The notes beneath the pieces are model-generated. The model ran no database searches. It was given only the letters and a program-made list of their open reading frames with translations, and was not told the DNA's origin. Positions 21,750-48,417 of a DNA stretch of 64,000 nt are shown here, piece by piece. A program made the translations under genes and the position numbers. The stretch spans positions 1,260,848-1,324,847 of the forward strand of contig KV454012.1 in the NCBI GenBank assembly GCA_001661245.1, in the 5' to 3' direction. The number at the start of each line of letters is the position of its first letter. The stretch's first letter is position 1. This DNA is from Pachysolen tannophilus NRRL Y-2460. Lineage: Eukaryota.

Positions 21750-22436
21750 ATGGTACTGGGTCAAGAGACAGAACCCGAGAGAAGGTTTGCATCTGTTAAG
21801 AGGATAACTAATGAAACTAGGATTCAAATTGCTTTAAGTTTGGATGGTGGAGCGGTAACTGTGGAAGAATCTATTTTCAAAGACAAACAATATAATATTG
21901 AAAGTAGTCAAGATACTAAAGTTCAATCTATTTCTGTTAATACGGGCATAGGGTTTTTGGACCATATGCTTCATGCGCTTCTGAAGCATTCTGGGTGGTC
22001 GATAATAGTAGAGTGTATTGGTGATTTGCATATAGATGATCATCACTCTGCAGAAGATGTTGGGATTGCACTTGGTATATGTTTTAATAAAGCTTTAGGT
22101 CATGTTAAAGGAGTTAAGAGGTTTGGGAGTGGGTTTGCTCCCTTGGATGAAGCTTTGAGTAGAGCTGTTGTGGATTTGTCTAATAGGCCTTATGCTGTGA
22201 TTGATTTAGGTTTGAAGAGGGAGAAAATTGGAGATTTATCATGTGAAATGATTCCTCATGTTTTAGAAAGTTTTGCACAAGGTGCAAAAATTACTATGCA
22301 TGTTGATTGTTTAAGAGGTTTTAATGATCATCATAGAGCTGAGAGTGCTTTTAAAGCATTAGCTGTAGCCATTAAAGAAGCAACTTCAAGTAATGGTACA
22401 AATGATATTCCAAGTACTAAAGGTGTTTTATTTTAA
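21750..22436 (+). CDS. HIS3: Imidazoleglycerol-phosphate dehydratase
   Basis: [54 protein letters not shown]. Confidence 0.98.
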
Positions 22437-22499
22437 TATTTATTTTTTATTTTTCTATATACAATTGTAAATATTTATATATATATATATATATATGAA

Positions 22500-23567
22500 T
22501 CATGTTTCTTTATTTAAAAGTTCCAAGATATTTTTAGCACTAATTTCAGTATTTTTAGAATCTCTTTCAAAATAATTTGGTCTTGAAGAATAACTATTAT
22601 CATAGTTGACTTTAACACCATTTTTACTATCTACACCAGCAACTTCTAACCTTATAGCTCCATTTGATGATAAGACTGCTTTTTGAACACTTACTGGGAT
22701 TTCTGCTTCTCTTAAATGTTTTCCTGGATTATTTGCAGCAATTTTTCCTAAAGAATTCATTGTTTGATGTGGTGCAGCAGCAACCAATCCTCCAACAGCT
22801 ATTTGCCAATGACTTGGAACTGAAGAAATTAATCTTGCAGGTACAACAGAACCTTCACTAAATCCATTTGGAGAAGTTGTTAATTTCCCCTTTAATCTAT
22901 AAGAAAATCCTCCTGTTCCTTTCATTATTGGGGTACCATTTATTTTATCAGTTGCTAAATTACAAATTGGTTTTTTAAGAGCTGGTGATTCTTCTTCTTT
23001 TAAAGAAAATATAAATTGAGTTATTTCATCATGTAATTCACAATCTAAACCTGATTTTATTCTTATTAATTTTTCTGGATTTTTATCTGATAAAAATTTT
23101 AAAAAAGAACCTCGATAATTTTTTAAAATTTCTAATAATTCAATTTTTTTAGATGTTGGAGTTGATTCATCTAAATTTAAAACTTCAGAAATTTTACTAG
23201 TATTTAATTCTTCTTGATTTCTAGGTATATTTCTAGTATTACCAAAAAATAATGGATTTTTACCATTTCTTGTTTCTAATGGTATATTAAATTCTTGAAA
23301 TCTTAATTTATTCCAATAAAATCCAGCTTCAGCTTCAAATTCAGTCATATGTTCAATAGTATCCAATTTATCAACAACAACATAACGCTTATTAACTTTT
23401 GATGGTAATTTGGATTTCAATCCAAAATCTTTACGATAAAATGATGCAGGCCCAGTTTCTATAATTTGTTGTGATGGATAAAGCTTTGATAATCTAACGG
23501 CGGTTAACGTATTCGAATCTTTAACTTGAGAAAGCCTAGATTTTCTCAACAACTTATTAAACGACAT
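22500..23567 (-). CDS. MRP51: Mitochondrial small-subunit ribosomal protein Mrp51 (bS1m); first ATG at 23567
   Basis: LLRKSRLSQV, QIIET...DFGLKS, LDTIEHMTEFE, WNKLRFQEFNIP, GGFSYRLKG. Confidence 0.85.
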   Translation of the reverse strand: MSFNKLLRKSRLSQVKDSNTLTAVRLSKLYPSQQIIETGPASFYRKDFGLKSKLPSKVNKRYVVVDKLDTIEHMTEFEAEAGFYWNKLRFQEFNIPLETRNGKNPLFFGNTRNIPRNQEELNTSKISEVLNLDESTPTSKKIELLEILKNYRGSFLKFLSDKNPEKLIRIKSGLDCELHDEITQFIFSLKEEESPALKKPICNLATDKINGTPIMKGTGGFSYRLKGKLTTSPNGFSEGSVVPARLISSVPSHWQIAVGGLVAAAPHQTMNSLGKIAANNPGKHLREAEIPVSVQKAVLSSNGAIRLEVAGVDSKNGVKVNYDNSYSSRPNYFERDSKNTEISAKNILELLNKET

Positions 23568-23794
23568 TTTTATCAATCAGTTGAAACACACTAAGACCAC
23601 CACTTTCAAAACTTTCCACCAATCGTTATCGGCGTCCTTGTCCTTGTCCTTGTTGTCGTTGTGGTAATACTATTATTATAGAAAGAATTTTTTTTGAACA
23701 TTGAATTTTTCTACTTTTTATTATTTTTTCCTTTTGTCTTTTTTGGCTGATTTTTAAACACTTTACCCGGACTTCCTCTTTCAGCACAATTGAC

Positions 23795-23945
23795 ATTTGA
23801 AAAACTACTTCTCTGTAAATTGGCGTTTATTGATATTGGGAACACTACTTTTGTAACAAATTTTTATTGATATTTGGAAAACTACTTTTTATAAATTAGA
23901 TTTTGTTTGATATTTTATAAACTACTTTTTGTGAATTAGATTTTA
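23795..23945. repeat. Degenerate ~40-bp minisatellite, about 4 copies
   Basis: ACTACTT cores at 23804, 23844, 23881 and 23921, each followed by AAATT/GAATT and (first three) TTGATATT. Confidence 0.75.
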
Positions 23946-24205
23946 GCTTTTTTTTAGGGGAAAAAAAACTGTGTAAAGATCAAATTTATATACATATAAA
24001 TATATATATATATATATGGTAGAAGTAAAAGTAAATCCAAAACTCAAGCAGGATAGATAAAAAGACACAGAAACTAGTTCTCGAAAGCTAAGGAAAGAAA
24101 AATAGATAGATAAAAGCAACAACAATAACAAAAAAAAAAAAAAAAAAAAAAAGGGGAATGCTATGGTTAAAAATTTTTATCTAGTTTATTAAACTTAACC
24201 TCGGA

Positions 24206-24478
24206 NNNNNNNNNNNNNNNNNNNNNNNNNNNNNNNNNNNNNNNNNNNNNNNNNNNNNNNNNNNNNNNNNNNNNNNNNNNNNNNNNNNNNNNNNNNNNNN
24301 NNNNNNNNNNNNNNNNNNNNNNNNNNNNNNNNNNNNNNNNNNNNNNNNNNNNNNNNNNNNNNNNNNNNNNNNNNNNNNNNNNNNNNNNNNNNNNNNNNNN
24401 NNNNNNNNNNNNNNNNNNNNNNNNNNNNNNNNNNNNNNNNNNNNNNNNNNNNNNNNNNNNNNNNNNNNNNNNNNNNNN
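24206..24478. other. Assembly gap (N run), followed by (AAT)n/(AT)n microsatellite with ambiguous bases to 24549
   Basis: Continuous Ns. Confidence 0.99.
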
Positions 24479-24509
<31 letters not shown>

Positions 24510-24569
24510 TATATATATATATATATATNTNTNTNTNTNTNTNTNTNTNTTTTTTTTTTTTTTTACTTT

Positions 24570-26279
24570 TCAAGCCCACAAAGCAGTAAGTACTTCCCAA
24601 CCTTTCAATTTTTTGTAAGGCGGTTCTGGGTTTTCACGAACATCTTTAAACAAAGAAGCTAAATCGACTTCACTTGGTTTCAAGAATTTTGTTTTCTTTA
24701 AAATCTTCCAGAAGAAATAAAGAATGAAAAATAATGGAATAATAAAATAATCTGTAAAGAAACTTGAAAAATCAAAATCTCCATGCATGAAATTTTCATA
24801 ACCTGCAGTTAATAAGAAAATAACAGAGAAGAATAATGATATATAAGAATATGCTTCTGTGAATTTTGCCTTATGTGGTAAATCATCTCTAGAATAACCT
24901 TGAACTTTCATTGCTTTTGACATTGCAATATGATTTACTGAAATTAAAATCCAATTTAATAAAGTATTTGAAGATGTAATATTTTGAAACCAACTGAAAA
25001 CAGTATCAGCTGAATCTGAACAAGACATATATGCTAATGGTAAGAAACATGCAGAAACTCCTAAAGCAACATATGGAACACCTCTTTTATTTGTTCTTAA
25101 AAGAATTTTTGGAGCTTGTTTTTTAACAGCTAAGGCAAATAATGTACGTGAAGCTGTTACTAAACCCAAATTACCAGAAGAAAAAGCTGAAGTTAAAACA
25201 ACAGCATTAATGATACTTGGTAATGCTGGAATGCCTGCACGTTTAATGGCAATAACAAAAGGAGATGAAGAAGCAGTACCTGTACTAGTAGCAATATCTG
25301 AATCGTTATATGGAACTAATAATCCCAAGATGAAAACAGACAGACAATATAAGAAACAAATTCTAAACATAACTCTTTTTGCAGCACGGAAAATTGAACG
25401 TCTTGGATATTCTGTTTCACCAGCTAATGTAGCAACACCTTGAAGACCAGCATATGCATATACAACAGAATTAATTGCACTCCAAAATCCACAAAATTTT
25501 CCAACATTACCTGTAACTATATATTCAGCAAATGGACCTGGATTATCCCAATATCTAAATCCAATTCTATCTTGACCTGGAACACCACCTAAATCAATAA
25601 CTAATCCACAAATAATTAAACCAAATACTAAAGAAATTTTTAATAAACCAAAACAAAATTCAACTTCACCATAAAATCTAACAGAATAAGAATTTGTTGC
25701 AACTTCAACAATTGCCATAATTGAAATCCAAATTGCTGGACTTAAAGGTGTCCAATATGAAACAACAACAGCTGCAGCTGCCAATTCTGTAGGTAAAAAT
25801 GCAGAATAAACTGAGATCCAACCATATGAAAAACCTATTGCTTCATCCATAAAATGTTCAGCTTGTCTAATTGTAGAACCAGTTGCAGGTAACATGCATG
25901 AAGTTTCTGCAATACATAATTGATTCATACTAATAATAATACCAATAAATAAATAACATAATAATATACCACATGGACCAGTTTTGGCTAAAGTACCACC
26001 AGAAGATAAAAATAAACCAGTACCAATAACACCAACTAAAGTTAACATTTGAATATGACGTTGTTTTAAACCTTGACTTAATCTTTTTCTTTCATGTTTT
26101 AAAAGATAATCTTCAGCTAATGAAACATTAGTTCTTGCAAGTTCTAAGGAAGAAAGCTCTGCTATTTCAGAAACTTCAACAACATTTACTTTACTTTTAT
26201 CTTCAATAGGTAATTTAGTAACATCAGAATGTTTTTCAGAAACTTCTCCACCATCTGAAGAAAAATTTTTTAAACTCAT
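24570..26279 (-). CDS. APC/YAT-family amino-acid permease (substrate unassigned); first ATG at 26279
   Basis: LKQRHIQM...IGTGLFL, YGEVEF, IGFRYWDNPGPF, SPFVIAI, multiple TM helices. Confidence 0.93.
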   Translation of the reverse strand: MSLKNFSSDGGEVSEKHSDVTKLPIEDKSKVNVVEVSEIAELSSLELARTNVSLAEDYLLKHERKRLSQGLKQRHIQMLTLVGVIGTGLFLSSGGTLAKTGPCGILLCYLFIGIIISMNQLCIAETSCMLPATGSTIRQAEHFMDEAIGFSYGWISVYSAFLPTELAAAAVVVSYWTPLSPAIWISIMAIVEVATNSYSVRFYGEVEFCFGLLKISLVFGLIICGLVIDLGGVPGQDRIGFRYWDNPGPFAEYIVTGNVGKFCGFWSAINSVVYAYAGLQGVATLAGETEYPRRSIFRAAKRVMFRICFLYCLSVFILGLLVPYNDSDIATSTGTASSSPFVIAIKRAGIPALPSIINAVVLTSAFSSGNLGLVTASRTLFALAVKKQAPKILLRTNKRGVPYVALGVSACFLPLAYMSCSDSADTVFSWFQNITSSNTLLNWILISVNHIAMSKAMKVQGYSRDDLPHKAKFTEAYSYISLFFSVIFLLTAGYENFMHGDFDFSSFFTDYFIIPLFFILYFFWKILKKTKFLKPSEVDLASLFKDVRENPEPPYKKLKGWEVLTALWA

Positions 26280-26379
26280 TTTTCTTCTTTTTTCTTTATA
26301 TATTATATTACTATTCAATCAAGAAACAAAAATGATTGAAAAAAGAAAGAAAGGAAGGAAATAATGAAAAAGAATAGGA

Positions 26380-29797: not shown

Positions 29798-29837
<40 letters not shown>

Positions 29838-30612: not shown

Positions 30613-30767
30613 TTTCTATAGAACATCTTGGTTTTTGTTTATATCTTAAATAAATTAATGAAAAATATTATAGTTTAATAATTTAAAATGACTGGTTATG
30701 CTTCAAATCACGTACAAGGAATCTATATATACAATAATCAAAAAAAAAAAAAATGTACGTAGTCTGC

Positions 30768-33700
30768 TCATTTTAATGATAAAAGAAATCTTTCTTCATC
30801 CTTGTTACTTAAATCCAAAAGAGTTTTGATAACAGGAAGTAATTGTTGTCTCTGTTCCTTGTGTTCCAAAAACCCTAATAGCACATTTTTCACATATGCC
30901 ATGTTTGTATTTATTTCACCATCACCGGAATTATGGATATTTGCTTGGTGATCGCTAAAGGAAAAGGAATCACGAGGTTTGAATGGTGAAGTTTGCGAAG
31001 AAGAAGTAGGACTGATGGAATTACTGGAAACAACAGAGTTCGACCTTTCTTTTGCCTGTTTGAATTGCAAGGATAAAGCTTTAAAGTTTTTATTCAAGTG
31101 TTCATATTTTAAAGATGAATCGTCAACTAGTTTTTTATAGATAGAATTCAAATTCTCTAAATCTTTTACCTTTGCTTCTGTCTTACTTAGCTGTTCTCTA
31201 AGACCATCCATAGTTTTTGTGATTATTTCAGACGATTCATGAGTGCTCGACGCATCACCACGGAGAGACTCTAATTTTAATTTCTCATTCTGTAGTTTCT
31301 TCAGTTCCAGTTGCGCTGAAAGTTTTTCATTCTCAATTGTAGAAATCTTATCAGTCAAATCGCTTAGTTTACTTCTCAAATCCTCTACCTCTCTTTGCCG
31401 TCTTTTTAAATTGTTTGTCGCATCAGATTCAATCTTTTCCTTTTCTTCAGTAATGGCATTTAGCTTAGCTGTGATCTCTTTTATCCTTGAGCTCTGTTTT
31501 TCTTCGCTTTCTACTAAAAACTGACGCATTGTACTAGTTTCACGGGTCCTTTCTTGTAACATTGTTCTAGCTTCTTGCAATTCTTCCTCTAAAGTATCAA
31601 CCCTAACTTCAGACTCTCTTGCTCTCATTGTTAATTCTTCACATTGCCTTTTTAACGAGTAAGCTTGATCAGTCGAAGATGATTTCGCATTAAGTAAATC
31701 GTTGTACTTGTCTTTGAATTCATCAGCATTTTTAATCAACCTATTGTTTTCCGCTTCAAGTTTACTGAATTTGACAGTAAGATCATGAAAATCAGCTTTT
31801 AACTTTTCGTTTCTTGTTAATAGTGCGTTTTTATCATTTAACAAGGTTTTATAGTTAGCATTTAGCTCTCCAAGGTTCACTTTTAGCTCAACAACTTTAT
31901 CATTTGATTTATCTCTTTCTTGTTCTAAAAAGCTCGATTTAGCTTCGTATTCAGTAATACGTTTATTTTTCTGCTCAATAGTTGATTTTAAATTAGCGAC
32001 TTCCAATTTTAAGGAAGTATCATTACTCTTAAATTGTGATAATTCTTTATTTTTATTCTCTAATAATGACTTACTCTCTTTGACGGTTTCTAATTCCTTT
32101 TGCAATTTATTTATTTTAACTGATAATTGATCTTTTAATTCATAAGTCTTCAACAATTCCTTATTCATACCGTCAATATTTACTTGCAATTTTGTAAGTT
32201 TATCGTCTTTGGATTCAGTTTCTTGTTTTCTCTTCTCATATTCTTCTGATAAAGATTTGATTCTTTTGTCTAATTGTCCATTCAATTTTCCAACTTTTTC
32301 CAATTCTCTTTTTGTGTCTTCTAACTCTTTAGTGAGTTTAACTTTTTCGTCGACTAAAGACTGATTACTTCTTTCCAAGGAGAACTTTGACGACTCATAA
32401 CTGGCAAGAACTTCAGCATGTTGCACACGAATGGTTTCTAATTCTGTTCTTAGCTCATCTAATTTTTGCTGATCTTCCTTTGAGATGTCATTTTTTGCAT
32501 CTGAAGAGCTTTGAGCTGTTAAAGATTTAATTTGATCTTTTGCTTGAACTAATTCATCTCCAACATTCTTCAACATATCTCTCAAATTTTCTATTTCTTC
32601 CATCTTATTTCTCAATTCCGCATTGATTTTCGAAGGTTGACCCCGTTTGAAATCTTCAAATTCTTTAGATAACGCCTCATATTTAGTCTTAAATTCTTTT
32701 AAGGATTCATTTTCGGTAATTAATAATTTTTGCTTTTCCTCCAATTCCTTTTGAGCATCTTTATTTTTATCGGAAACGCTCAACAATTTTTCATACTTAC
32801 TTTGTAACTCCACTAATTTATCAAAATCAGTCTCATTATTAGAAGAAGATTTAGTAGAAAGTGGTGCATTACTATCATTGTTCTTGTTTTTCTTATTTTT
32901 CTTCTTTTTGTTTTCGGTATTCGGACCGTTGGAAGTAGCAGAGCTTTTATTCAGATCCTCATTTAATTTTGTAACTTTTTCTTTAAACATATCAAGTAAC
33001 TTAACATTTGAGGATAAAGTGGACTCTAATTCTTGAACCTTATTATTTAATTCAGCATTTTTTTCAGAAGCAGTTTTATCAGTGTCAGATACTTTTTGAG
33101 AGAGTTCATCTCTTTGCCTTTTCAATTCAACATTTTCTGTTAGAAGTTGATCTTTCAATTTTGTTATTTCATCAATTTTGGTAATACTTTCTTTATTTAG
33201 AGACTTATTTTGTTCGAGTTCTTTTGTCAATAAATTTATTTTTTCGGAAAATTCATCAATTTTCAGATTTTGTTTTTCTAATTCCTGAATTCTTGATGCT
33301 TGAATTTCTTTTGTCTCATTAAAAGAAGAGATCTCATTATGTAATTTAGTGATTGTGTCTTTTGCATTGGATAATTCTTTTTCGTTTGAAGATGAAGATT
33401 CCTCTAATGTTTTCAATTTCGCATTGGCATTTTCTAAATCTTTAACTAAATTATCGTTATTATTTGATTCCTGTTGTTGTGAAGTTTTAACATTTGCATT
33501 TAATTCATTTAATTTGTTCTCCAAATCTTTCAACTTGGCATCATTAACCTGTTTTTCCTTCAGTGATCTAGATGCATCTGCTGCCATTCTTCTCATTTCA
33601 ACGTTTAACATTTGTGTTTTAGAATTAAGACTATCTAAATATTCAACCAAAGTATCAACTTCTGCTATACTTGAACAGGGTGTATGTTCTCTTAATATTT

Positions 33701-34388
33701 TTTCAAATTTTTCAATAAAACTTGTTTTACGTTTTTCAACTTTGTAAGCATCCAATAACACAGGATATTTTTCTTCATATTTAGCAAATTTTCTGATCTT
33801 TGCTCTAATCTCAGGGGGTAACGTATTTAAATTAATTCTGGAAACATTTGCATTATTATCTTGTAAAGACAGAGATTGTTCTGCAGGAGACAGCGGTCGT
33901 AATGACAGAGACAGAGACAGAGAAGAAGACCGCGGTAATGGAGACAGTGTGGGTGTTGGAGTCGAAGTTGGTGTCGATGCTGCGGTTGGTGATTCCGACA
34001 CAAGTTGATCTCCTTCTACCATAGGTTTATCACTAGGTTCATCACTACCTTCACCCAGATTATTATCATCCAGATTAGTACCATCCAGTGATGTTTCAAT
34101 AATTGGCTCATCTTCAGGCTGAGTCATATCATCTGGGTTTGGTGTCTTTGTATTTAAAACCGCAGCCTGTCTTTGCAAATCTCGTGTCGATATCGCCGAA
34201 GAGCCTCCATTGGCGCTGTTATCAGTTCCAGCAAAATTAGAGTTCTTAGCCATTCTCATCAACGAAGACGCCCTACTGGGTGAACCACTACTACCCGATC
34301 CATCACCGCTATTATTATTTGCTTCATCTAAAGTACGTTGAAGTTCACCACTAATATTTTTACCCAACTGTGATATTTTAGAAAACAT
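30768..34388 (-). CDS. IMH1: GRIP-domain golgin Imh1
   Basis: LPPEIRAKIRKFAKYEEKYP, long coiled coil, C-terminal GRIP AYVKNVLLGFLEHKEQRQQLLPVI. Confidence 0.93.
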   Translation of the reverse strand: MFSKISQLGKNISGELQRTLDEANNNSGDGSGSSGSPSRASSLMRMAKNSNFAGTDNSANGGSSAISTRDLQRQAAVLNTKTPNPDDMTQPEDEPIIETSLDGTNLDDNNLGEGSDEPSDKPMVEGDQLVSESPTAASTPTSTPTPTLSPLPRSSSLSLSLSLRPLSPAEQSLSLQDNNANVSRINLNTLPPEIRAKIRKFAKYEEKYPVLLDAYKVEKRKTSFIEKFEKILREHTPCSSIAEVDTLVEYLDSLNSKTQMLNVEMRRMAADASRSLKEKQVNDAKLKDLENKLNELNANVKTSQQQESNNNDNLVKDLENANAKLKTLEESSSSNEKELSNAKDTITKLHNEISSFNETKEIQASRIQELEKQNLKIDEFSEKINLLTKELEQNKSLNKESITKIDEITKLKDQLLTENVELKRQRDELSQKVSDTDKTASEKNAELNNKVQELESTLSSNVKLLDMFKEKVTKLNEDLNKSSATSNGPNTENKKKKNKKNKNNDSNAPLSTKSSSNNETDFDKLVELQSKYEKLLSVSDKNKDAQKELEEKQKLLITENESLKEFKTKYEALSKEFEDFKRGQPSKINAELRNKMEEIENLRDMLKNVGDELVQAKDQIKSLTAQSSSDAKNDISKEDQQKLDELRTELETIRVQHAEVLASYESSKFSLERSNQSLVDEKVKLTKELEDTKRELEKVGKLNGQLDKRIKSLSEEYEKRKQETESKDDKLTKLQVNIDGMNKELLKTYELKDQLSVKINKLQKELETVKESKSLLENKNKELSQFKSNDTSLKLEVANLKSTIEQKNKRITEYEAKSSFLEQERDKSNDKVVELKVNLGELNANYKTLLNDKNALLTRNEKLKADFHDLTVKFSKLEAENNRLIKNADEFKDKYNDLLNAKSSSTDQAYSLKRQCEELTMRARESEVRVDTLEEELQEARTMLQERTRETSTMRQFLVESEEKQSSRIKEITAKLNAITEEKEKIESDATNNLKRRQREVEDLRSKLSDLTDKISTIENEKLSAQLELKKLQNEKLKLESLRGDASSTHESSEIITKTMDGLREQLSKTEAKVKDLENLNSIYKKLVDDSSLKYEHLNKNFKALSLQFKQAKERSNSVVSSNSISPTSSSQTSPFKPRDSFSFSDHQANIHNSGDGEINTNMAYVKNVLLGFLEHKEQRQQLLPVIKTLLDLSNKDEERFLLSLK

Positions 34389-35917: not shown

Positions 35918-36020
35918 ACTCTATTCTTTACTAAAAGAAATTTTTAATAATTTTTCAAACCTAATATTAAACAATAATACCTCTAATTAAATCAATAATA
36001 CCGTTATGAAAATTCCATTT

Positions 36021-36031
36021 AAAATTTTTCA
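36021..36031. promoter_or_regulatory. RRPE-like element upstream of RMT2
   Basis: AAAATTTTTCA. Confidence 0.4.
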
Positions 36032-36616: not shown

Positions 36617-38854
36617 ATGTCCTTTAGGAATAGTTTAATTGGAAGTAGGAATTTTTCCAAGATTCTCTTGAACAATCGCGATGGGTTGATGAGACCCACG
36701 TTTAATCAACTAGGTTCAAGGCAATTGTTGAATATGTCTCCTACTCGAAGCATTGGTTCTATGAGATATATAATTAATCAGAAAAACAATTTTTCTTACT
36801 TCAACAAGTCTAGTCAAAATTGTTTTTTTTCTACTTCGATGCTGTTAAGAAATGAACTTAATAAGCCATCATCGCTGAATTCAGATTCAAATAAAGTCAC
36901 ACCATCATCTAATGCTACTTTGAACAATGCTGGTGAGAAAATTGTATATGCTGAAGCTTATTCTTTTTTCAAACATAATTTTTTCGGTAGAGTTGTTCTG
37001 AATCTTTGTATTGCAGTTGGTGTTGTTGGTACTTCGGTTGCAGGATTAATTTTAGTTTTTTTCTTGTATGATTATTCAACATATGGATCAGGTAAGTATT
37101 GGGAAGATGATACTAAATTAAGTGTTCCGGAACTTGCTTTATCACCTGAAAGAGGTGGTCCAGAAAATTTACCAATTTTAAGAGCTCAATTGGATTCATT
37201 TGATTCACCTTCAAAGGCAAATTCTCGTCATAAACCAAAATTGGTTATTTTAGGTTCTGGATGGGGAAGTGTTAGTTTACTTAAACAGTTGAACAGTTCT
37301 GATTATGATGTTACAGTTATTTCACCAACAAATTATTTCTTATTTACTCCAATGTTACCTTCAGCTGCTGTAGGTACTTTAGAAATTAAATCAATTTGTG
37401 AATCTATTAGATCTATCTTAAGTTATATCGGTGGTCATTACTTAAGAGCATCAGCTGAAAAGATTTTGTTTAGTGAAAAACTTATTAAAGTATCTTCAAC
37501 AGATCCAGAAACAGGTGAAATTCAAAAATTTTATGTTCCTTATGATAAATTAGCAATTGCTGTAGGTTCAATTTCTAATACACATGGTGTTGATGGTATT
37601 CAATATTGTCATAAATTGAAAACAGCTGAAGATGCTTTAACTTTAAGAAAGAAAATTGTTGAAAATTTAGAACGTGCTTGTTTACCTACCACATCGGATG
37701 AAGAAAGGAAAAAATTGTTATCATTTGTTGTCTGTGGTGCAGGTCCAACAGGTACTGAAGTTGCTGCAGAGATTTCAGATTTGTTAAGTGAGGATATCAT
37801 TAGAGGTTTCCCTAAAATCTTAAGACAAGAAGTTTCCGTTCATATAATCCAATCAAGAAGTCATATTTTGAATACTTATGATAAGACTATTTCTGAATAT
37901 GCAATGGAACGTTTCCAAAAAGATTCCATTGATATTTTAACAAATTCAAGAGTTCAAAAGATTACAGCCGATGAAGTAATATTCAATCAATTAAACCCGG
38001 AGACAAAAGAAGTTGAACTTAAGCTGTTACCTTATGGTTTGTGTTTATGGTCAACTGGTGTTGGTCAGAATCCATTAGCACAAGATGTTGTTCATTCTTT
38101 AACTGGTGTCCAAAAAAATAGAAGGGCTATTGAGACTGATCCTCATTTGAGAGTCATTGGAGCTCCTTTGGGAGATGTATATGCTATTGGTGATTGTTCC
38201 ACTGTTCGTACAAATATTGCAGATCATACTACTGAATATATTAGGAAATTTGTTGTTGGTAGACATTTCCCTAAGCATAAGTTGGAAAAAAACATTATTA
38301 CAGATGATGATATTAAACATTTATTATTGACTTATGATGAATTAATAGATTTAAGTCTTCAGATTGCTCAAAAACATCCATTAGCTAAGGAAAATTTACA
38401 ATTAATGCATGAATTATTACCCAAATATGATAGTAATAAGACTGGTCGTTTAACTTTTGACCAAGTTAAACTGTTATTAGAAGAAGTTGATTCAAAAGTT
38501 ACTTCTTTACCAGCCACTGCTCAAAGAGCTCATCAACAGGGTAAATACTTGGGTAAAAAACTTTCAAAATTAGCTAGATCATATGATTCATTAACTTTAA
38601 ACGATATCTTAGATGGTGACATTGATGATGCAGTTGCCAAGCCTTTTAAGTACCGTCACTTGGGTTCTTTGGCATATATCGGTAATTCTGCTGCATTGGA
38701 CATATCTGGCCATTCATTTGTCGGAGGAGTCATTGCCATGTATTTGTGGAGAAGTATTTATTTTGCCCAATCTGTCAGTACAAGAACAAGAGTCTTGTTA
38801 TTCATGGATTGGTTGAATAGAGGTATCTTTGGAAGAGATATTATAACAGTTTAG
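36617..38854 (+). CDS. Mitochondrial type II NAD(P)H dehydrogenase with EF-hand insertion (N. crassa NDE-1 / plant NDB type)
   Basis: Presequence-like N-terminus, TM segment, LVILGSGWG, FLFTPMLPS, CGAGPTGTE, AIGDC, EF-hand-like DSNKTGRLTFDQ, LPATAQRAHQQG, LWRSIY. Confidence 0.92.
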   Translation: MSFRNSLIGSRNFSKILLNNRDGLMRPTFNQLGSRQLLNMSPTRSIGSMRYIINQKNNFSYFNKSSQNCFFSTSMLLRNELNKPSSLNSDSNKVTPSSNATLNNAGEKIVYAEAYSFFKHNFFGRVVLNLCIAVGVVGTSVAGLILVFFLYDYSTYGSGKYWEDDTKLSVPELALSPERGGPENLPILRAQLDSFDSPSKANSRHKPKLVILGSGWGSVSLLKQLNSSDYDVTVISPTNYFLFTPMLPSAAVGTLEIKSICESIRSILSYIGGHYLRASAEKILFSEKLIKVSSTDPETGEIQKFYVPYDKLAIAVGSISNTHGVDGIQYCHKLKTAEDALTLRKKIVENLERACLPTTSDEERKKLLSFVVCGAGPTGTEVAAEISDLLSEDIIRGFPKILRQEVSVHIIQSRSHILNTYDKTISEYAMERFQKDSIDILTNSRVQKITADEVIFNQLNPETKEVELKLLPYGLCLWSTGVGQNPLAQDVVHSLTGVQKNRRAIETDPHLRVIGAPLGDVYAIGDCSTVRTNIADHTTEYIRKFVVGRHFPKHKLEKNIITDDDIKHLLLTYDELIDLSLQIAQKHPLAKENLQLMHELLPKYDSNKTGRLTFDQVKLLLEEVDSKVTSLPATAQRAHQQGKYLGKKLSKLARSYDSLTLNDILDGDIDDAVAKPFKYRHLGSLAYIGNSAALDISGHSFVGGVIAMYLWRSIYFAQSVSTRTRVLLFMDWLNRGIFGRDIITV

Positions 38855-39917: not shown

Positions 39918-42070
39918 ATGAACTATCACCTTGTTATTCTTGTTCATGGGTAAGTTAATAAAAATAAATCAGGTTTTTTTTGTTTTTTTTTAGTTTTCCC
40001 AAAATCTGAAGAATATTTAGATTGTACTAACAGTAGAATGATTTTAGATTATGGGGTAATACTTCACATTTCGATTATATAAAATCTCAACTTGAAATTT
40101 TGTCCAAGACAAGTTCTGATCTTGCGAATGCTGGTGAAAAGTTAGTTATTTACAGAACAGGTTCAAATGAAGGTTATAAGACATATGATGGGATTGATAT
40201 TTGTGGGAAAAGAGTTGCATTAGAGATTGAAAATGAAATTAAGTTGTTGAACGATTTGGGTCATGATAATGATTCAAAAGTTACAAAAATTTCAGTACTT
40301 GGATATTCTTTAGGAGGTTTGATTTCAAGATATGCTATAGGAATTTTATTGAAAAAAGGTTATTTTGATGAGATTGAACCTATCAATTTTACATCTTTTT
40401 GTACACCTCATGTAGGTGTATTAACTCCAGGTAAAGGTGTTGCTGTTAAATTATTTAATTGGTTAGTTCCATTTTTATTGGCTAATAGTGGTAAACAAAT
40501 GTTTCTTAAAGATCAAGCATCTGTTATAAATACCAATTATGAATCTGAATCTGATGAAGAATCAGGTTCTTTATCTCATGATATGTCTCGCTCTTCGTCA
40601 ACTAGAACCACAACTACAACAATTGAAAAACAGCCTTTGTTATTATTAATGGCAAATCCTCAATCAATTTTTTATAAAGCATTAAAACGTTTTAAATACA
40701 AGAGTTTATATGCTAACGTTGTTAATGATAAGAGAACATGTTGGTGGACAGCAGGTATTTCAATGATTAATCCATTTGAAGTCTTGGATGTGAATCCTAA
40801 TATTAAAATTGATGATGATGGATGTATTACTTTTGAAAATGGTAATAAGTTTGAGTTACATTTTATTAAAAATTATGAATCTATAGTTATTGATGCTAAT
40901 AGCCCAATAAAGATAATTAGAAATGATTTATATTTAAATGGAAATTCTGATGTTAAGCCTAACTTTATTGGTTGTGATAAATTTTTAAAAAATGATACTA
41001 CTAATGAAAAGGGAGATGAAAATAATTGTCGAGGTACACCTACACCAGAAGAATATGCTGGAAATTTTTTCCAAAGGAAATTTAAATGGCTTCTTGTTGT
41101 ATTTAATATTCTGGTTTATGCACCAATGTGGGCTTCTTGGTTTATTTTAAACAATATTATTCAAAGATTTCAATCTGGTTGGAGAGTTTTAAAAGAATCA
41201 GATGCAGGAGGTTTATTAGAATTATATCAATTAAGTATTGATGAGCCAACACTGATTGAAGGTAATATGGGGAAATTATTGGAAAAAGATGAATTTGAAG
41301 AAAGAAATCATGATATTGAAGGAAAGGGGAAAGCTATGGATAATATTAATTTAGATAAAAGACCATTATTACCAAAGAGATTATCTAGAACTTATGAAGG
41401 AATTAATAAGAATTTTGAAGAAAACTTTTATGATCAAACTGAAGATTTAATGGAATCTTTTTGGGATGCAATGACTTCTAAAAAATTAGATGAACAAAAT
41501 TTATTATTTGAAGCTGGTAGTATTTCCAGTAAAGATCATATATATAAACAAGAAAATGAGAATAATGAAGAAGGAAATTATGGATTAAGATTACGTCATA
41601 TTAGTCCAAGTGAAGATTTTGAAAAAACAAATACATTGGAAAAAGGAACTGAAATTGGAACTGAAATTGGAACTGAAGATAAACATAAACATTCTATATT
41701 AGTTACCACGATCAATGAACTTTGTGATTTTGATTTTACCAATGGTAGATCAAATCATCAATCGACATCCACGACCACTACCACAACCACAACTGCGGAA
41801 TCATTACAAAACCCAAATTTAAATGTATCTAGTGAGAATAATCTGCTAGATGCATCAATTTTTTTAAAACAATTTGAATTACAACTTTCAAAAGAACAAA
41901 TTGAAATCGTACATAATTTAAACATTTTACAATGGAAAAAATTCCCAATATATATCAAAAAGACAAATTCAACACATGCTCTGTCAATTGTAAGACATAA
42001 CGATTTAAATTTTGTTGAAGGAGAAACCGTTGTTAAACATTGGTTATACCAAGTTTTCAAATTAAACTAA
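39918..42070 (+). CDS. DUF676 serine hydrolase/lipase (Rog1/Lpl1/YDR444W-like), exons 39918..39949 and 40048..42070
   Basis: Intron GTAAGT (39950) ... TACTAAC (40025) ... TAG (40047) restores MNYHLVILVHG|LWGN; TYDGID, GYSLGG nucleophile elbow, TPHVG, LYANVVND, C-terminal His motif. Confidence 0.9.
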
Positions 42071-43452: not shown

Positions 43453-45924
43453 ATGCAATCATTTCATCATAATAATCAACAGAGCTCGTTGAATGATAGC
43501 GTGGTAGAGAGTCGGCATCAGCATCAGCATCAGCATCAGCATCAGCAGCAGCTGATGCTGATGCATCCGAATTCGAATCCGAATCATCAGCAAAATCAGC
43601 AACAACAGCAGCAGCAGCAACAACAAGAGCAGCAGCAGCATCAGTTGCCGCCAATACAACACCCGCATAATCATAGTCTACTGCATCAGCAACAGGTAGC
43701 GGCACCACCTTTATATCATCCTCCTCATATTATGCTGACAACAGCGTCGATACCTCCTTCGATGCAGCATCAGCATCAGCAACAACAGCAACAACAGCAG
43801 TATTATTCTTTGCCTCTTCCAGGTGGTGCAGGTGCTGGTGGTGCCGGTGTTGGTGCCGGTGGTAGTATTAGTGCATCAACTACAGGTAATAGTGTTGGTG
43901 GTGCGGGAACCGATAGCGCCATGGCTTCTAAAAATACTGGTGAAAAACCACCATCTATACCGCAAGAACGGCATTCACGAGGGTTGACCTTATCGGATAA
44001 TAATTCAGTTCAACGGTTAGCTGCTTCTGCTAGTCCAAATTCAAAGACAACTTTGACAGCAAGAAGAGGCCCTTGGGCTCCAGATGAAGATAGTAGATTA
44101 TTGGATTTGGTTGCCTTATTAGGTGCAAGAAATTGGGTAAGAATTTCAGTTGCCTTGGGTTCAAGAACTCCAAAACAATGCAGAGAAAGGTACCATCAAA
44201 ATTTGAAACCTTCTTTAAATAGATCCCCTATAACTCCAGAGGAAGGTGCTTTAATCGAAGAACTTGTTGCAAAATTCGGTAAAAGGTGGGCTGAAATAGC
44301 TCGCCATTTAAATGGAAGAAGCGATAATGCTATCAAAAATTGGTGGAATGGAGGTGCCAATAGAAGAAGAAGAGCAACTTCAGTGACATCAGAAACTACA
44401 ACAACATCAGGTCTATTAGATGCGGAATTACTGCGTGATCAGGAAAGCAAGTTGACAGAACAACAACAATCTTTCCAACCTACGACAGCTTCTGTCGCTT
44501 TCAATACTCAGATATTTGGTGGAAATGGACAACCTTCCCAGCACCAAGGATCACAACCAACAGGTCCAGGGAAACTACAGTCTCTACAACAACAACAACA
44601 ACAACAATTTGTTCAACCAACTCAACGGTCTGCAAGTTTTGATTTCCGTTTCCCAATGAGCGTTGATTCTTCCGGACTTCAAGGACCAGCGGCAATACAA
44701 TCTCAACAAGTTCAGCAACAGCAGCAACTTCAACCACCTCCGCCTCAATTCCCACCTCCTTCTAATCTTGTACAACAACACATAAATGGTGGATTCCCGG
44801 TAGCTAACAACATCCGCAAGCGGATATTGATTGATGAACATCAGCCATTGAGAAGACATTCAGTGGCTACTATTGGAGGTCCAATCTTTCAAAGTTATAA
44901 CAACCCTAGTGCGCTTTCTTTTAGCAATACAACCACGTCATCTTCCCCATTATCCCATCCCCCGAGTATCAGTTCAAGGAATAGCTCAATTTCTCATGAA
45001 TTTTCTGGTTTATCAACTTTTTCAAATTACTTATCAGATGGTGCCAATTCTGCAGCTACTTCGAGGAGGTCTTCATATTTATCCCTGCACCAACAATTTC
45101 AGCAACAGCAGCAACAACTGCAACAACAACAACAACATGAACCCAACAATTTTACTGGATTACATCACAGAAAAAACTTGTCTCTGCAGTCAATCTCAAA
45201 TGCTGCTCCAGTTCCAGCTTCTGCTGCTGCTGCTGCTTCCACAGCCAATGCTAATAGTACAAATTCCACAACGGCGGCAGCAACATCTACCTACATTTCA
45301 CCTTCATTGGTTCCATATAGATATTCTATTTCCGGGTTAACACCAATGTCTACTTCAAATGTGAAATTACCTCCATTGTCACCACGCACATTTGTATCAG
45401 CAAATACTCATAATAACACGAATAATGGAATTAGTAGGAAAAGTAGCGTTCCATCAATTCTTGTTAATGAAAATAAACTTCCTCCATTATCACTTGGACA
45501 ATGTCCACCTCCACAAAATTCGAGTATACAGCAAAATCCAGCAAACCTGGAAAATACTGATAATAAGTCAAATACTGGAGAGAGTGTACATACTGTTACG
45601 GCAAATGTACCTAATGACACCGTATTCAAGAGAGAATTCTCGTTTGCAAACGCAACTAAAAAAACATTGGCGAACGATGATAGTAATGATCATAACAACA
45701 ACAACAACAATAATAATAAAGATGATCAGGAAAAAAGGGAAGAAGCAGAAGCAAGTGGAGGCGAAACTACAAATGATCCAAGGGAAAAAGATGTTGTTAT
45801 GGTGGATGCAGATAGAAAGGATGTGGGTATTTCATTATCACAACAAATGTCTTCTGATAAGTCTCAAGGATCAAAAAATGAAGAGGATAAGAAAAGAATG
45901 TCTATTTCTAATTTATTGGCCTAG
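43453..45924 (+). CDS. R2R3 Myb transcription factor, FlbD-like, polyQ-rich
   Basis: RRGPWAPDED...NWVRIS...RTPKQCRERYHQNLKP...GKRWAEIARHLNGRSDNAIKNWWNG; C-terminal RMSISNLL. Confidence 0.9.
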   Translation: MQSFHHNNQQSSLNDSVVESRHQHQHQHQHQQQLMLMHPNSNPNHQQNQQQQQQQQQQEQQQHQLPPIQHPHNHSLLHQQQVAAPPLYHPPHIMLTTASIPPSMQHQHQQQQQQQQYYSLPLPGGAGAGGAGVGAGGSISASTTGNSVGGAGTDSAMASKNTGEKPPSIPQERHSRGLTLSDNNSVQRLAASASPNSKTTLTARRGPWAPDEDSRLLDLVALLGARNWVRISVALGSRTPKQCRERYHQNLKPSLNRSPITPEEGALIEELVAKFGKRWAEIARHLNGRSDNAIKNWWNGGANRRRRATSVTSETTTTSGLLDAELLRDQESKLTEQQQSFQPTTASVAFNTQIFGGNGQPSQHQGSQPTGPGKLQSLQQQQQQQFVQPTQRSASFDFRFPMSVDSSGLQGPAAIQSQQVQQQQQLQPPPPQFPPPSNLVQQHINGGFPVANNIRKRILIDEHQPLRRHSVATIGGPIFQSYNNPSALSFSNTTTSSSPLSHPPSISSRNSSISHEFSGLSTFSNYLSDGANSAATSRRSSYLSLHQQFQQQQQQLQQQQQHEPNNFTGLHHRKNLSLQSISNAAPVPASAAAAASTANANSTNSTTAAATSTYISPSLVPYRYSISGLTPMSTSNVKLPPLSPRTFVSANTHNNTNNGISRKSSVPSILVNENKLPPLSLGQCPPPQNSSIQQNPANLENTDNKSNTGESVHTVTANVPNDTVFKREFSFANATKKTLANDDSNDHNNNNNNNNKDDQEKREEAEASGGETTNDPREKDVVMVDADRKDVGISLSQQMSSDKSQGSKNEEDKKRMSISNLLA

Positions 45925-46764
45925 GTGTAGGTGACAAAGAGATGAACAAGAAAAAATACAAAAAAACAAAAAAAGAAACCTAGTTTTATTTCTTTTGATG
46001 TTACAATTCAATTCAAGTCCCACTTTTATATAGATTTATGTTTCCGCTTTAATCTTTACGTTGGTGAAAGGCTGTTAACCTACTTTTCACATTTCTGATG
46101 TACATAATGATTGTTTTACACTTTTCTTTTTTGTTACTTTTACTTGTTCTGTTATATTATCTTACGCAACTCCCAAAACTGATTTGTTTCTATTAATAAT
46201 AAAATTTTTATATATTCATATATATTCCAAGTTTGTATTTTCTGATCCTAAAATCATCATTTCTAATAAATGCAGGATTAGGTTCTTACAAAGCTCGGAT
46301 ATAAAAAATTAATAATATTATTTTAAAATGAAATTTTTGCTAAAAAAGGGAAATGAAAAAGAAAATTACAACAGACAATTAAAACAATGGTTAAAACCAT
46401 CTAACGATAACTTACTATTATTTGTATTTGTATAACTTTTTTTTTTTTTCATTCTTTTTTTAACGTTGATGAAAAAATATTTCAAATAATTTCAGGTCTA
46501 AGATGAGAAACTTCCAGGAACTTCAAACATTAGACGACAACATATACAAAAACAACAACGACATTAGCAACAATATAATTCCAACAACACCAGATTAGAC
46601 GTCTAAAAAAATAGAAATAGATAACGAAAAAGAAAAGAAACTTTTGAACTTTTTTGTTTTGTATTATTGATTTATTTATTTATTTTATTAATTTTGTTTT
46701 TCTTTCTTTTTTTTTTTTTTTTTTTTTTTTTTTCTTTTCTCATTTGTTTTCTTTGTATAGAAAT

Positions 46765-48417
46765 TCAACTTAATACAGCTAATATTTGTTCACTTAAATT
46801 CAAAATATCATCTCCTCCATTTTCGCTGTCATTGCCATTACTATTTGTAGTATTATTAAGATTTTGCTGATGAATTAAAGTTATCAGTTGTTTTAAAGAG
46901 GAATTTTTGATACTGTTAACAACGGCTGCATTATTGGATTCCAATAATTGGAAAACGGTCCATAGCGAAATGTGTTCGAATGTTGAATTACCACTTTTTA
47001 AAAATCTTATCAAGAATCCGTATATACCATCATTTGGTTCGGACCAATTTTTCAAAACTGCAGAGTAATCATCAATTCTAGAGCAAAGATTGGCTAATGC
47101 AGCTGCAGAGTTACCACAAACTTCACCATTTGAAGAAAAAGTTAATGGAATCAAAGTATCAATAATACCTAATTTTAACAACTTTGTCTTTAAATCATCA
47201 GCTAATGCCAAGATTGCAAAACAGGCGGATATTTCACTTTGAACAGAAATTGGTGAATTTAATACCAATTCTTTACATTTTTTAACTGCACCTGCTTCTA
47301 ATAATGCAAGACGATTTCTTTCACTACTTGCAGCCAAATTTCTTAAAGTTGAAACTGCATGGCATTGTATTTCCTCTGATTCTGTATAATCTAATAATGA
47401 AACCAAAGGTTTTAAGAAACCTGCATCAATAATTAAAGCTTCATTTAAAGGATGAATAGATATATTTCTTATGCAAGCAACAGCTGCTAATACTAAAGGT
47501 TGATGAGTTGATTGTAATAAAGTTACCAAATTTGGTAAGCCGCCAGATCTTACAATTTCTAATTGATAATTTGAATCTGAAGCCAAGTTACGTAAAGCTA
47601 ATGTTGCCTGACATTGAACTCTTGGACTTGAAGAATCCATCAATTGAACCAATTGATTGACTAATTTTGGTTCTGAAGTAGATAATTTTTTACGATTAAC
47701 TTCATCAACGGCTATATTTGATAACGCTGTTGTACAATAATATTGAACATCTGGATCTCCACTTGATAATAATTGAACCAATACAGGTACCGCTCCTGCA
47801 TTTACCAATTCTTGTCTATTTTCTAACGAATGTGTCATATTTAACAAAGCACCTGTTGCATTTCTTTGAACTCTTAAATCTTTTGATTTCAGTAATTTTG
47901 TTAATGGAATTAATGCACCTGATTTTGCAATTTTAGCTTTATTATGATCTTGAGTAGCTAAATTTGTTATACATCCAACGGCGTTACACTGAACTTCAAT
48001 GTTTGATGACATCATTTGTTTAATTAAAGGTTCTAAACCACCCATTTCAACTATTAACAGTTTATTTTCATTATTAACAGCTAAATTACCCAATGCAGCA
48101 CAAGCAGCTCTTTGAACTTCTGCATCACTACTTTGTAATAATATTAATAAAGGTTCCAAAACATCTCTATCAACTGTTCTAACATCTTTTTCAGTAATTT
48201 CAGCAAACAGTAACGCGGCACTTCTTTGTAAATCAACATTTTCTGAATATACCAATGTACTTAATGCTCTTAAAGGACCATCACTGAAAAAATCAACTTC
48301 TGTTCGATTTTCTAAAAATTGTAAAAGTGCAGAAATTGCTTCACGTTCATTATCAGCCAACAATGGAGGATTTCGTTCTTGACTATCATCTCTTAAACAA
48401 CTACAACAAGCACCCAT
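46765..48417 (-). CDS. VAC8: Armadillo-repeat vacuolar protein Vac8; ATG at 48417
   Basis: MGACCSC myristoylation/palmitoylation N-terminus, ARM repeats ([42 protein letters not shown]). Confidence 0.97.

What the first reader, a model, noticed from the sequence alone, without database searches (positions are those of the whole stretch)
21981..48210. Non-standard genetic code: CUG appears to encode alanine
Seen in sequence: in-frame CTG codons occur at HIS3 21981 (DHMLHAL[CTG]KHSGW), VAC8 48208-48210 (QRSAAL[CTG]FAEITEK), VAC8 47890-47892 (LIPLTKL[CTG]KSKD) and lipase 41981 (STHA[CTG]SIVRH). From recalled alignments these columns are conserved Ala (HALAKHSGW, AALAFAEITE, TKLAKSK, HAA). YSC84 PNQ[CTG]FG and MRM1 ALK[CTG]NKR are also compatible with Ala. 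Neither Leu (standard) nor Ser (Candida CTG clade) fits all sites as well. This matches the CUG-Ala reassignment established for Pachysolen tannophilus and relatives (NCBI table 26). It is known for that clade but would be new if the source lies outside it. Every ORF-track L derived from CTG should be read as A.
Basis: partly seen in the sequence, partly recalled or inferred. Interest (0 to 1): 0.92.

Follow-up and report, generated by a model that had tools for sequence, protein, structure and literature searches.

The report
Known yeast code: CUG read as alanine

Summary
All six cited CTG codons are in frame at the stated places. The four columns called conserved Ala are Ala-dominated: VAC8-70 92/119, VAC8-176 118/119, lipase-495 128/147, HIS3-78 5/5 solved structures and 46/67 bacterial homologues.

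Of 14 CTG sites with at least 30 aligned homologues, 4 are Ala columns. The others are Ser, Gly, Val/Ile, Lys, Glu or variable. None is a Leu column: 0/13 against 175/278 for the other Leu codons, Fisher p = 4e-6.

A profile likelihood over the 14 sites ranks Ala first (+2.2), then Ser (-4.0); Leu is tenth (-18.1). CTG is the only one of 51 codons that departs from the standard code.

The public proteins from this same contig already carry Ala at 15 of 15 covered CTG sites. Two single-gene trees place the window as sister to, or unresolved at the base of, Pichiales and outside Serinales. That is where the published CUG-Ala clade (Alaninales) sits.

Verdict: NCBI code 26, already known, low interest. 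The tRNA(CAG) could not be checked because no genome is held.

The parts
21981..21983 (+). CTG codon 78 of HIS3 (imidazoleglycerol-phosphate dehydratase, ORF 21750-22436), in an Ala-dominated column
   Evidence: for the sequence. A in 5/5 displayed solved chains. A 46/67, S 12, V 5 in bacterial homologues.
48208..48210 (-). CTG codon 70 of VAC8 (ORF 46765-48417), in an Ala/Thr column
   Evidence: A 92, T 27 of 119. S. cerevisiae Vac8 has A. The contig's public protein P0001 has A.
48058..48060 (-).
   Evidence: V 54, I 36, L 23, A 4 of 119. S. cerevisiae has L. P0001 has A.
47890..47892 (-). CTG codon 176 of VAC8, in a nearly invariant Ala column
   Evidence: A 118 of 119. P0001 has A.
46885..46887 (-). 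CTG codon 511 of VAC8, in a variable C-terminal column
   Evidence: G 28, M 20, I 15, K 8, A 6 of 103.
41981..41983 (+). CTG codon 495 of the ATG-delimited ORF 40499-42070 (C-terminal part of a lipase-like gene), in an Ala column
   Evidence: A 128, S 6, V 3 of 147. The contig's public protein P0241 has A.
41843..41845 (+). CTG codon 449 of the lipase-like ORF, in a variable column
   Evidence: E 7, T 6, K 5, A 5, S 5, L 4 of 51.
3275..3277 (+). CTG codon 52 of CHO2 (ORF 3122-5836), in a strongly conserved Ser column; the strongest site against Ala
   Evidence: S 116, L 2, T 1 of 119.
4181..4183 (+). CTG codon 354 of CHO2, in a variable column
   Evidence: P 25, N 24, S 19, A 13 of 117. The contig's public protein P0121 has A.
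5225..5227 (+). CTG codon 702 of CHO2, in a Val/Ile column
   Evidence: V 87, I 24, L 3, A 2 of 118. P0121 has A.
5480..5482 (+). CTG codon 787 of CHO2, in a Gly column
   Evidence: G 91, S 9, E 7, D 5, A 2 of 118. P0121 has A.
36998..37000 (+). CTG codon 128 of the NDE1-like external NADH dehydrogenase (ORF 36617-38854), in a Lys/Tyr/Arg column
   Evidence: K 47, Y 16, R 14 of 88. The contig's public protein P0391 has A.
38024..38026 (+). CTG codon 470 of the NDE1-like gene, in a Glu/Ser column
   Evidence: E 94, S 17, A 2 of 119. P0391 has A.
38471..38473 (+). CTG codon 619 of the NDE1-like gene, in a variable column
   Evidence: E 30, L 23, A 13, K 10 of 119. P0391 has A.
56104..56106 (+).
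   Evidence: Codon confirmed. Solved structures cover only the SH3 domain, residues 395-451.
21115..21117 (-).
   Evidence: Codon confirmed. The only alignment over it scores -1.8 bits.
14539..14622 (-). tRNA-Leu(AAG), the only tRNA gene in the window; it is not the CUG decoder
   Evidence: ARAGORN; sequence. PMC4937558, Results section as read, describes tRNA-Leu(AAG) as part of the CUN box set in Pachysolen.

Best explanation
The window comes from a budding yeast of the CUG-Ala clade (order Alaninales: Pachysolen, Nakazawaea, Peterozyma). The simplest guess is Pachysolen tannophilus itself. Its nuclear genes use NCBI genetic code 26. In this clade the ancestral Leu-tRNA that read CUG was lost, and a duplicated alanine tRNA whose anticodon changed to CAG now reads the codon. 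Alanyl-tRNA synthetase recognises the G3:U70 pair and A73 rather than the anticodon, so this tRNA is still charged with alanine. Today's CTG codons are mostly young. They arose after the change at positions that tolerate Ala, which is why only some sit on conserved Ala columns and none on conserved Leu columns. What is shown here: the alignment signal for Ala, the rejection of Leu and Ser, the phylogenetic position, and the fact that the public annotation of this contig already reads CTG as Ala. What is inferred from the literature: the tRNA mechanism and direct proof at the protein level.
For: (1) No CTG site lies in a Leu column: 0 of 13 in columns with at least 50% Leu, against 175 of 278 for TTA/TTG/CTT/CTC/CTA in the same four proteins (Fisher p = 4.2e-6). 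Three of 13 CTG sites lie in columns with at least 50% Ala, against 0 of 278 for Leu codons (p = 7e-5) and 8 of 192 for Ser codons (p = 0.025). (2) A Codetta-like profile likelihood over 14 sites in 5 proteins gives Ala +2.2, Ser -4.0, Glu -11.9 and Leu -18.1 (tenth). Of 51 codons with at least 5 sites, CTG is the only one whose best residue differs from the standard code. None of 20,000 draws of 14 true Leu sites, and none of 20,000 draws of 14 true Ser sites, reaches the observed Ala advantage. (3) Ala dominates VAC8-70, VAC8-176, lipase-495 and HIS3-78. (4) The four proteins that the database marks as the window's own (P0001, P0121, P0241, P0391; same 2,193,613-base contig) carry A at 15 of 15 covered CTG sites. 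(5) In the CHO2 tree the window plus an unnamed relative (SH-aLRT 100) is sister to Komagataella, Kuraishia and C. boidinii (joint support 100) and lies outside 10 Serinales. In the NDE1 tree it falls in a 99* clade with Pichiales, but the order of branching against Komagataella is unresolved. (6) Literature: CUG = Ala in P. tannophilus, with 97.2% of 907 fully supported CUG positions read as Ala by mass spectrometry, and a tRNA(CAG) with G3:U70 and A73 (PMC4937558, Results section read). The Ala clade comprises Pachysolen, Nakazawaea and Peterozyma and is sister to the Leu2 (Pichiaceae) clade (PMC5951914, passages). CUG-Ala is diagnostic of the order Alaninales (PMC11182611, passages). (7) The window has 76 CTG in 25 ORFs, about 3 per gene. 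The paper reports 16,824 in 5,288 genes, about 3.2 per gene.
Against: Only 4 of 14 testable sites are Ala columns. CHO2-52 is Ser in 116 of 119 homologues, CHO2-787 is Gly in 91 of 118, and CHO2-702 and VAC8-120 are Val/Ile columns. NDE1-128 is mostly Lys and NDE1-470 mostly Glu. The total Ala score (+2.2) is close to background, whereas 13 GCC sites scored +15.7 for Ala. None of 20,000 draws of ordinary Ala-codon sites gave an Ala-minus-Ser margin as low as the observed 6.2, so CTG does not behave like an ordinary Ala codon. The margin of Ala over Ser is moderate (6.2 nats) and rests on 5 proteins; 49 of the 76 CTG codons were not examined. No tRNA(CAG) and no peptide were seen here. The species was not identified: names of the window's own records are masked, and sequencing-run names are coded. 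The public annotation is a human decision, not independent biological evidence.
Confidence: 0.93

Rival explanations
1. CUG is read as serine, as in the Candida/Debaryomyces clade (code 12, Serinales) or the Ascoidea/Saccharomycopsis clade.
For: CHO2 codon 52 sits in a column that is Ser in 116 of 119 homologues. Ser is the second-best residue in the likelihood (-4.0 against +2.2). HIS3-78 has S in 12 of 67 bacterial homologues.
Against: Only 1 of 13 CTG sites is in a column with at least 50% Ser, against 72 of 192 for real Ser codons (p = 0.035). Three of 13 are in Ala columns, against 8 of 192 for Ser codons (p = 0.025). None of 20,000 draws of true Ser sites reaches the observed Ala-minus-Ser margin; the maximum was 0.2 against 6.2 observed. 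VAC8-176 has no Ser in 119 sequences. The CHO2 tree puts the window outside 10 Serinales and apart from Ascoidea, and the NDE1 tree puts it apart from Saccharomycopsis. The contig's public proteins carry A, not S.
Confidence: 0.03
2. Standard code: CUG is leucine, and the cited sites are ordinary substitutions at tolerant positions.
For: S. cerevisiae Vac8 has Leu at the position of VAC8 codon 120. Leu is present in 23 of 119 sequences at VAC8-120 and at NDE1-619. A bacterial LysP chain has Leu at the amino-acid-permease site 313.
Against: None of 13 CTG sites is in a Leu-majority column, against 175 of 278 for the other five Leu codons in the same proteins (p = 4.2e-6). Leu ranks tenth (-18.1), and none of 20,000 resamples of Leu sites comes near; the maximum Ala-minus-Leu margin was -19.0 against +20.4 observed. 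Leu is absent from VAC8-70, VAC8-176 and the listed residues of lipase-495.
Confidence: 0.005
3. Mixed or stochastic decoding: CUG is mainly Ala but a meaningful share is read as another residue, as Ascoidea asiatica reads CUG as both Ser and Leu.
For: CTG sites fit Ala much less well than ordinary Ala codons do, and one sits on a nearly invariant Ser column. Dual decoding has a precedent in yeasts (PMC6041473, abstract seen in the listing).
Against: The poor fit is what is expected of young codons that arose after reassignment. For P. tannophilus, mass spectrometry found Ala at 97.2% of fully supported CUG positions, with deviations no more frequent than at AUG (PMC4937558). Nothing in the window can measure decoding ratios.
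Confidence: 0.03

Closest known systems
Pachysolen tannophilus nuclear code (NCBI table 26; CUG-Ala clade, order Alaninales)
   Same: CTG fits Ala and not Leu or Ser in orthologue alignments. There are about 3 CTG codons per gene. The window falls with Pichiales and outside Serinales. The public proteins of this contig are translated with A at CTG.
   Different: No difference was found. Still untested here are the tRNA-Ala(CAG) itself, the absence of tRNA-Leu(CAG), and peptide evidence. The species within the clade was not determined.
CUG-Ser reassignment of Candida and relatives (NCBI table 12, Serinales)
   Same: The same codon is taken away from Leu. The CTG codons are few and mostly young, and they avoid conserved Leu columns.
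   Different: The residue is Ala, not Ser: 1 of 13 sites in Ser columns against 3 of 13 in Ala columns. The window lies outside Serinales in the CHO2 tree.
Ascoidea/Saccharomycopsis CUG-Ser2, with stochastic Ser/Leu decoding in Ascoidea asiatica
   Same: A third independent reassignment of CUG in budding yeasts (PMC5951914).
   Different: A different residue and a different clade. Ascoidea and Saccharomycopsis branch elsewhere in the trees. Ambiguity cannot be measured from DNA alone.

Membership tests
CUG-Ala genetic code (NCBI table 26, Alaninales) | CTG codons match Ala, not Leu or Ser, at conserved columns of orthologue alignments | tested here: met
   Over 14 sites: Ala +2.2, Ser -4.0, Leu -18.1. 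CTG is the only deviant among 51 codons. None of 20,000 resamples of Leu or Ser sites reaches the observed margin. The fit is weaker than for ordinary Ala codons.
CUG-Ala genetic code (NCBI table 26, Alaninales) | A tRNA with anticodon CAG and alanine identity (G3:U70, A73, no long variable arm) | not testable with these tools
   No whole genome is held. The window's only tRNA is tRNA-Leu(AAG). The feature is documented for P. tannophilus in PMC4937558.
CUG-Ala genetic code (NCBI table 26, Alaninales) | No tRNA-Leu(CAG) and no Leu tRNA that reads CUG | not testable with these tools
   This needs the full tRNA gene set, and no genome is held.
CUG-Ala genetic code (NCBI table 26, Alaninales) | Alanine found at CUG positions in peptides | not testable with these tools
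   This needs mass spectrometry. It is published for P. tannophilus: 97.2% of 907 positions (PMC4937558).
CUG-Ala genetic code (NCBI table 26, Alaninales) | Phylogenetic position in Pichiomycetes as sister of Pichiales and outside Serinales | tested here: met
   CHO2 tree: window plus unnamed relative (100*) is sister to 3 Pichiales (joint 100*) and outside 10 Serinales. NDE1 tree: a 99* clade with Pichiales, branching against Komagataella unresolved. These are single-gene quick trees, and no named Alaninales sequence was available for comparison.
CUG-Ala genetic code (NCBI table 26, Alaninales) | The public annotation of the source translates CTG as Ala | tested here: met
   P0001, P0121, P0241 and P0391 have A at 15 of 15 covered CTG sites.
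CUG-Ser code (NCBI table 12) | CTG codons match Ser columns | tested here: not met
   One of 13 sites is in a column with at least 50% Ser. Ser trails Ala by 6.2 nats, beyond all 20,000 resamples of real Ser sites.
Standard code (CUG = Leu) | CTG codons match Leu columns as the other Leu codons do | tested here: not met
   0 of 13 against 175 of 278, p = 4.2e-6. Leu ranks tenth.

The most novel reading that the evidence does not exclude
The source might be a lineage of the CUG-Ala clade beyond the genera studied so far, or it might read CUG not purely as Ala. CTG sits on a nearly invariant Ser column in CHO2, and CTG sites as a group fit Ala worse than any random set of ordinary Ala codons. 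Either case would add a data point on how a captured codon spreads or stays ambiguous.
Probability: 0.03. Interest if true: 0.45.

Novelty: already known. Interest (0 to 1): 0.1.

Why it matters
For annotation it matters a great deal. Every CTG in this window, 76 in 25 ORFs, must be translated as Ala, and pipelines that use the standard code will put Leu there. Scientifically it adds nothing new. The CUG-Ala code was published in 2016, was extended to a clade in 2018, is now diagnostic of the order Alaninales, and is already applied in the public proteins of this contig. The one useful nuance is that CTG codons here mostly do not occupy ancestral Ala positions. That fits the published view that they arose anew after the reassignment.

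Tried and rejected
- **Whole genome:** I asked for it in order to scan for tRNA(CAG). None is held, so the tRNA test was dropped.
- **Earlier notes of this scan:** nothing for this genome.
- **Sequencing runs:** 5 rows from 2 studies hold the stretch. Organism names are coded, so they gave no identification. No RNA holder is listed. I did not lay reads, since they could not bear on decoding.
- **Solved-structure searches that gave no usable column:**
  - MRM1: site 126 aligns only in a -1.8-bit stretch and site 367 lies in a gapped region.
  - YSC84: only the SH3 domain is covered.
- **Solved-structure searches that gave weak or variable single-sequence readings:**
  - PNC1-192: E, K, S, N, K.
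  - GTR2-262: V in S. cerevisiae and S in a fourth chain, next to an indel.
  - Permease-313: L in a LysP chain, A in two weak ApcT alignments.
  - EDC3-3: Q. EDC3-490: Y in a weak human alignment.
  - None of these entered the likelihood.
- **Sites dropped for fewer than 30 aligned homologues:**
  - Lipase-205 (n = 27: L 6, V 6, I 5, F 4, T 4, A 1, C 1).
  - Lipase-252 (n = 10).
  - NDE1-76 (n = 6).
  - NDE1-87 (n = 14).
  - HIS3-3 (n = 1).
- **ORFs dropped:** of the 28 ORFs listed, three were left out of the codon count:
  - 11658-12452 (+), antisense to the RRM gene.
  - 45425-45934 (+), overlapping the Myb gene in another frame.
  - The 5'-open variant of the last ORF.
- **MAFFT global alignment of CHO2:** it gave a somewhat different picture at the variable site 354. 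I replaced it with query-anchored phmmer alignments.
- **GC content:** a literature look for the GC content of Pachysolen, to compare with the window's 29.7%, found no usable statement (listing only).
- **Malformed paper look-ups:** two were rejected for malformed terms. I read the sections instead.
Full report
**What the window is.** The 64 kb window has 29.7% G+C and 659 N. It carries about 25 long ORFs with ordinary budding-yeast identities by Pfam and by solved-structure matches. They include:
- a Gtr2-type GTPase (best matches are GTR2, not GTR1), CHO2, an RNase PH-domain protein, an arrestin-domain protein and an RRM protein;
- a PEX11-related protein, MRM1, HIS3, a mitochondrial ribosomal protein of the Mrp51 family and an amino-acid permease;
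- a kinase, a GRIP-domain coiled-coil protein and an external NADH dehydrogenase;
- a lipase-like protein, a Myb protein, VAC8, EDC3, YSC84 and a NOL10-family protein (Pfam Beta-prop_NOL10_N);
- a nicotinamidase and a PDR-type ABC transporter.

One tRNA gene is present, tRNA-Leu(AAG) at 14539-14622 on the minus strand.

**Checking the observation.** In the 25 ORFs there are 76 CTG codons among 14,541 codons, 5.2 per 1000, and 22 of the 25 ORFs have at least one. To test the recalled alignments without bias, I translated the ORFs with CTG masked as X and collected homologues:
- VAC8: 120 best of 1333 hits.
- CHO2: 120 of 1731.
- The lipase-like protein: 150 of 288.
- The NDE1-like dehydrogenase: 120 of 1780.
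- HIS3: 18 solved IGPD sequences with 5 alignments shown, plus 80 bacterial loci of which 67 aligned at the site.

| Site | Residues in homologues |
|---|---|
| VAC8-70 | A 92, T 27 of 119 |
| VAC8-176 | A 118 of 119 |
| Lipase-495 | A 128 of 147 |
| HIS3-78 | A 5 of 5 solved chains; A 46 of 67 bacterial |

The YSC84 and MRM1 sites could not be tested.

These five proteins hold 19 CTG codons, and 14 of them have at least 30 aligned homologues. Only the four above are Ala columns. The other ten are as follows:

| Site | Residues in homologues |
|---|---|
| CHO2-52 | S 116 of 119 |
| CHO2-787 | G 91 of 118 |
| CHO2-702 | V 87, I 24 of 118 |
| NDE1-128 | K 47, Y 16, R 14 of 88 |
| NDE1-470 | E 94, S 17 of 119 |
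| VAC8-511, CHO2-354, lipase-449, NDE1-619 | variable |

Five sites had too few homologues and were dropped. Single-sequence readings from solved structures at five more sites were variable or weak. The remaining 49 CTG codons were not examined. Many lie in low-complexity tracts.

**Is it more than chance, and which residue?** I used the other codons of the same proteins as controls.
- *Leu columns.* In the four deeply aligned proteins, 175 of 278 sites with the other five Leu codons fall in columns with at least 50% Leu. For CTG the count is 0 of 13 (Fisher p = 4.2e-6).
- *Ala columns.* Three of 13 CTG sites fall in columns with at least 50% Ala. The comparison is 0 of 278 for Leu codons (p = 7e-5), 8 of 192 for Ser codons (p = 0.025) and 72 of 114 for ordinary Ala codons (p = 0.007).
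- *Profile likelihood.* I summed the log-odds of each residue over column profiles with BLOSUM62 pseudocounts. Over 14 sites this gives Ala +2.2, Ser -4.0, Glu -11.9 and Leu -18.1, with Leu tenth.
- *Control codons.* Among the 51 codons with at least 5 sites, CTG is the only one whose best residue differs from the standard code, so the method recovers the code everywhere else.
- *Resampling.* None of 20,000 draws of 14 true Leu sites reaches the observed Ala advantage, and none of 20,000 draws of true Ser sites does either.

Leu is therefore rejected, Ser is disfavoured, and Ala fits best.

**CTG does not behave like an ordinary Ala codon.** None of 20,000 draws of ordinary Ala-codon sites gave an Ala-minus-Ser margin as low as the observed 6.2. 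This is what one expects if today's CTG codons arose after the reassignment, at positions that tolerate Ala, rather than descending from ancestral Ala codons. Single-base neighbours of CTG include GTG (Val), CAG (Gln), CCG (Pro) and the other Leu codons, which may explain the Val/Ile columns. This last step is inference.

**Where the source sits.**
- *Public proteins.* In each of the four large searches the top hit is marked by the database as a protein encoded by the window itself, on a contig of 2,193,613 bases. These public proteins (P0001, P0121, P0241, P0391) carry A at 15 of 15 covered CTG sites. Whoever annotated this genome already used CUG = Ala.
- *Nearest relatives.* The next hit in each search is one unnamed organism, 81% identical in VAC8, 52% in CHO2 and 74% in NDE1. 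The nearest named relatives differ by protein: Komagataella, Kuraishia and Ogataea for CHO2 and NDE1, and Wickerhamomyces for the highly conserved VAC8 (78%).
- *CHO2 tree (19 rows).* The window plus that relative (SH-aLRT 100) is sister to three Pichiales (joint 100) and lies outside 10 Serinales and Ascoidea.
- *NDE1 tree (25 rows).* The same pair falls in a 99* clade with Pichiales, with the branching against Komagataella unresolved, and apart from Saccharomycopsis, Phaffomycetales and Saccharomycetales.
- *Limits.* These are quick single-gene trees, and no named Alaninales sequence was among the rows.

**What the literature says.**
- Mühlhausen et al. 2016 (PMC4937558; outline and Results section read) showed CUG = Ala in Pachysolen tannophilus. 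Mass spectrometry found Ala at 97.2% of 907 fully supported CUG positions, and the tRNA(CAG) carries G3:U70 and A73. The paper counts 16,824 CUG codons in 5,288 genes, about 3.2 per gene, against about 3.0 here.
- Krassowski et al. 2018 (PMC5951914; passages) extended the code to Nakazawaea and Peterozyma and placed the Ala clade as sister to the Leu2 clade (Komagataella, Kuraishia, Ogataea, Pichia).
- Groenewald et al. 2023 (PMC11182611; passages) made CUG-Ala the diagnostic character of the order Alaninales.

The position found here matches that clade. That the species is P. tannophilus itself is my guess. It rests on two points: no hit named as Pachysolen appears in any list while the window's own hits are masked, and I recall that NCBI names table 26 after this species. 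It is not shown by any search.

**What could not be done.** The only tRNA in the window is tRNA-Leu(AAG), which belongs to the CUN-box set described for Pachysolen and is not the CUG decoder. Peptide evidence is outside these tools.

**Verdict.** Interest is low. The practical message is that all 76 CTG codons in these ORFs should be read as Ala.

Noticed in passing
window 39918-42070 (+): The lipase-like gene is longer than the ATG-delimited ORF at 40499. The public model (P0241, 684 aa) starts at 39918 with a short first exon, followed by an intron of about 95 bases with GTAAGT, TACTAAC and TAG signals (about 39950-40045).
   Followed up: partly
window 3122-5836 (+) and 46765-48417 (-): The public gene models of this contig are shorter than the open frames. 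The CHO2 model P0121 (742 aa) starts at residue 163 of the 904-aa ORF, although 119 homologues align across the missing N-terminus, including the Ser column at residue 52. The VAC8 model P0001 (506 aa) ends 44 residues before the ORF's stop.
   Followed up: partly
window 9811-10185, 24206-24478, 24529-24549: There are two runs of N (375 and 273 bases), and a stretch where every second base is N. These are gaps or withheld sequence between genes.
   Followed up: no
window 14539-14622 (-): tRNA-Leu(AAG), 84 bases, followed by a long T run. It is the only tRNA in the window.
   Followed up: partly
window 30768-34388 (-), 51442-53910 (+), 43453-45924 (+): CTG codons cluster in low-complexity tracts. 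Nine lie within residues 101-173 of the GRIP-domain protein, in a Ser/Pro/Thr-rich stretch. A doublet and a triplet lie inside a Gln/Glu run of ORF 51442. Several lie in the poly-Gln/His head of the Myb protein. These cannot be placed in alignments.
   Followed up: no
window 1230-2279 (-): The Gtr1/RagA-family ORF is the GTR2 (RagC/D) orthologue by its best solved-structure matches: E 2e-139 to yeast Gtr2 against 2e-13 to Gtr1.
   Followed up: yes
proteins P0122 and P0392 (unnamed nearest relative): The nearest relative has L at two of the window's CTG sites (CHO2-702 and NDE1-619), where most homologues have V/I or E. If that organism also reads CUG as Ala and its proteins were predicted with the standard code, these could be shared CTG codons written as Leu.
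   Followed up: no
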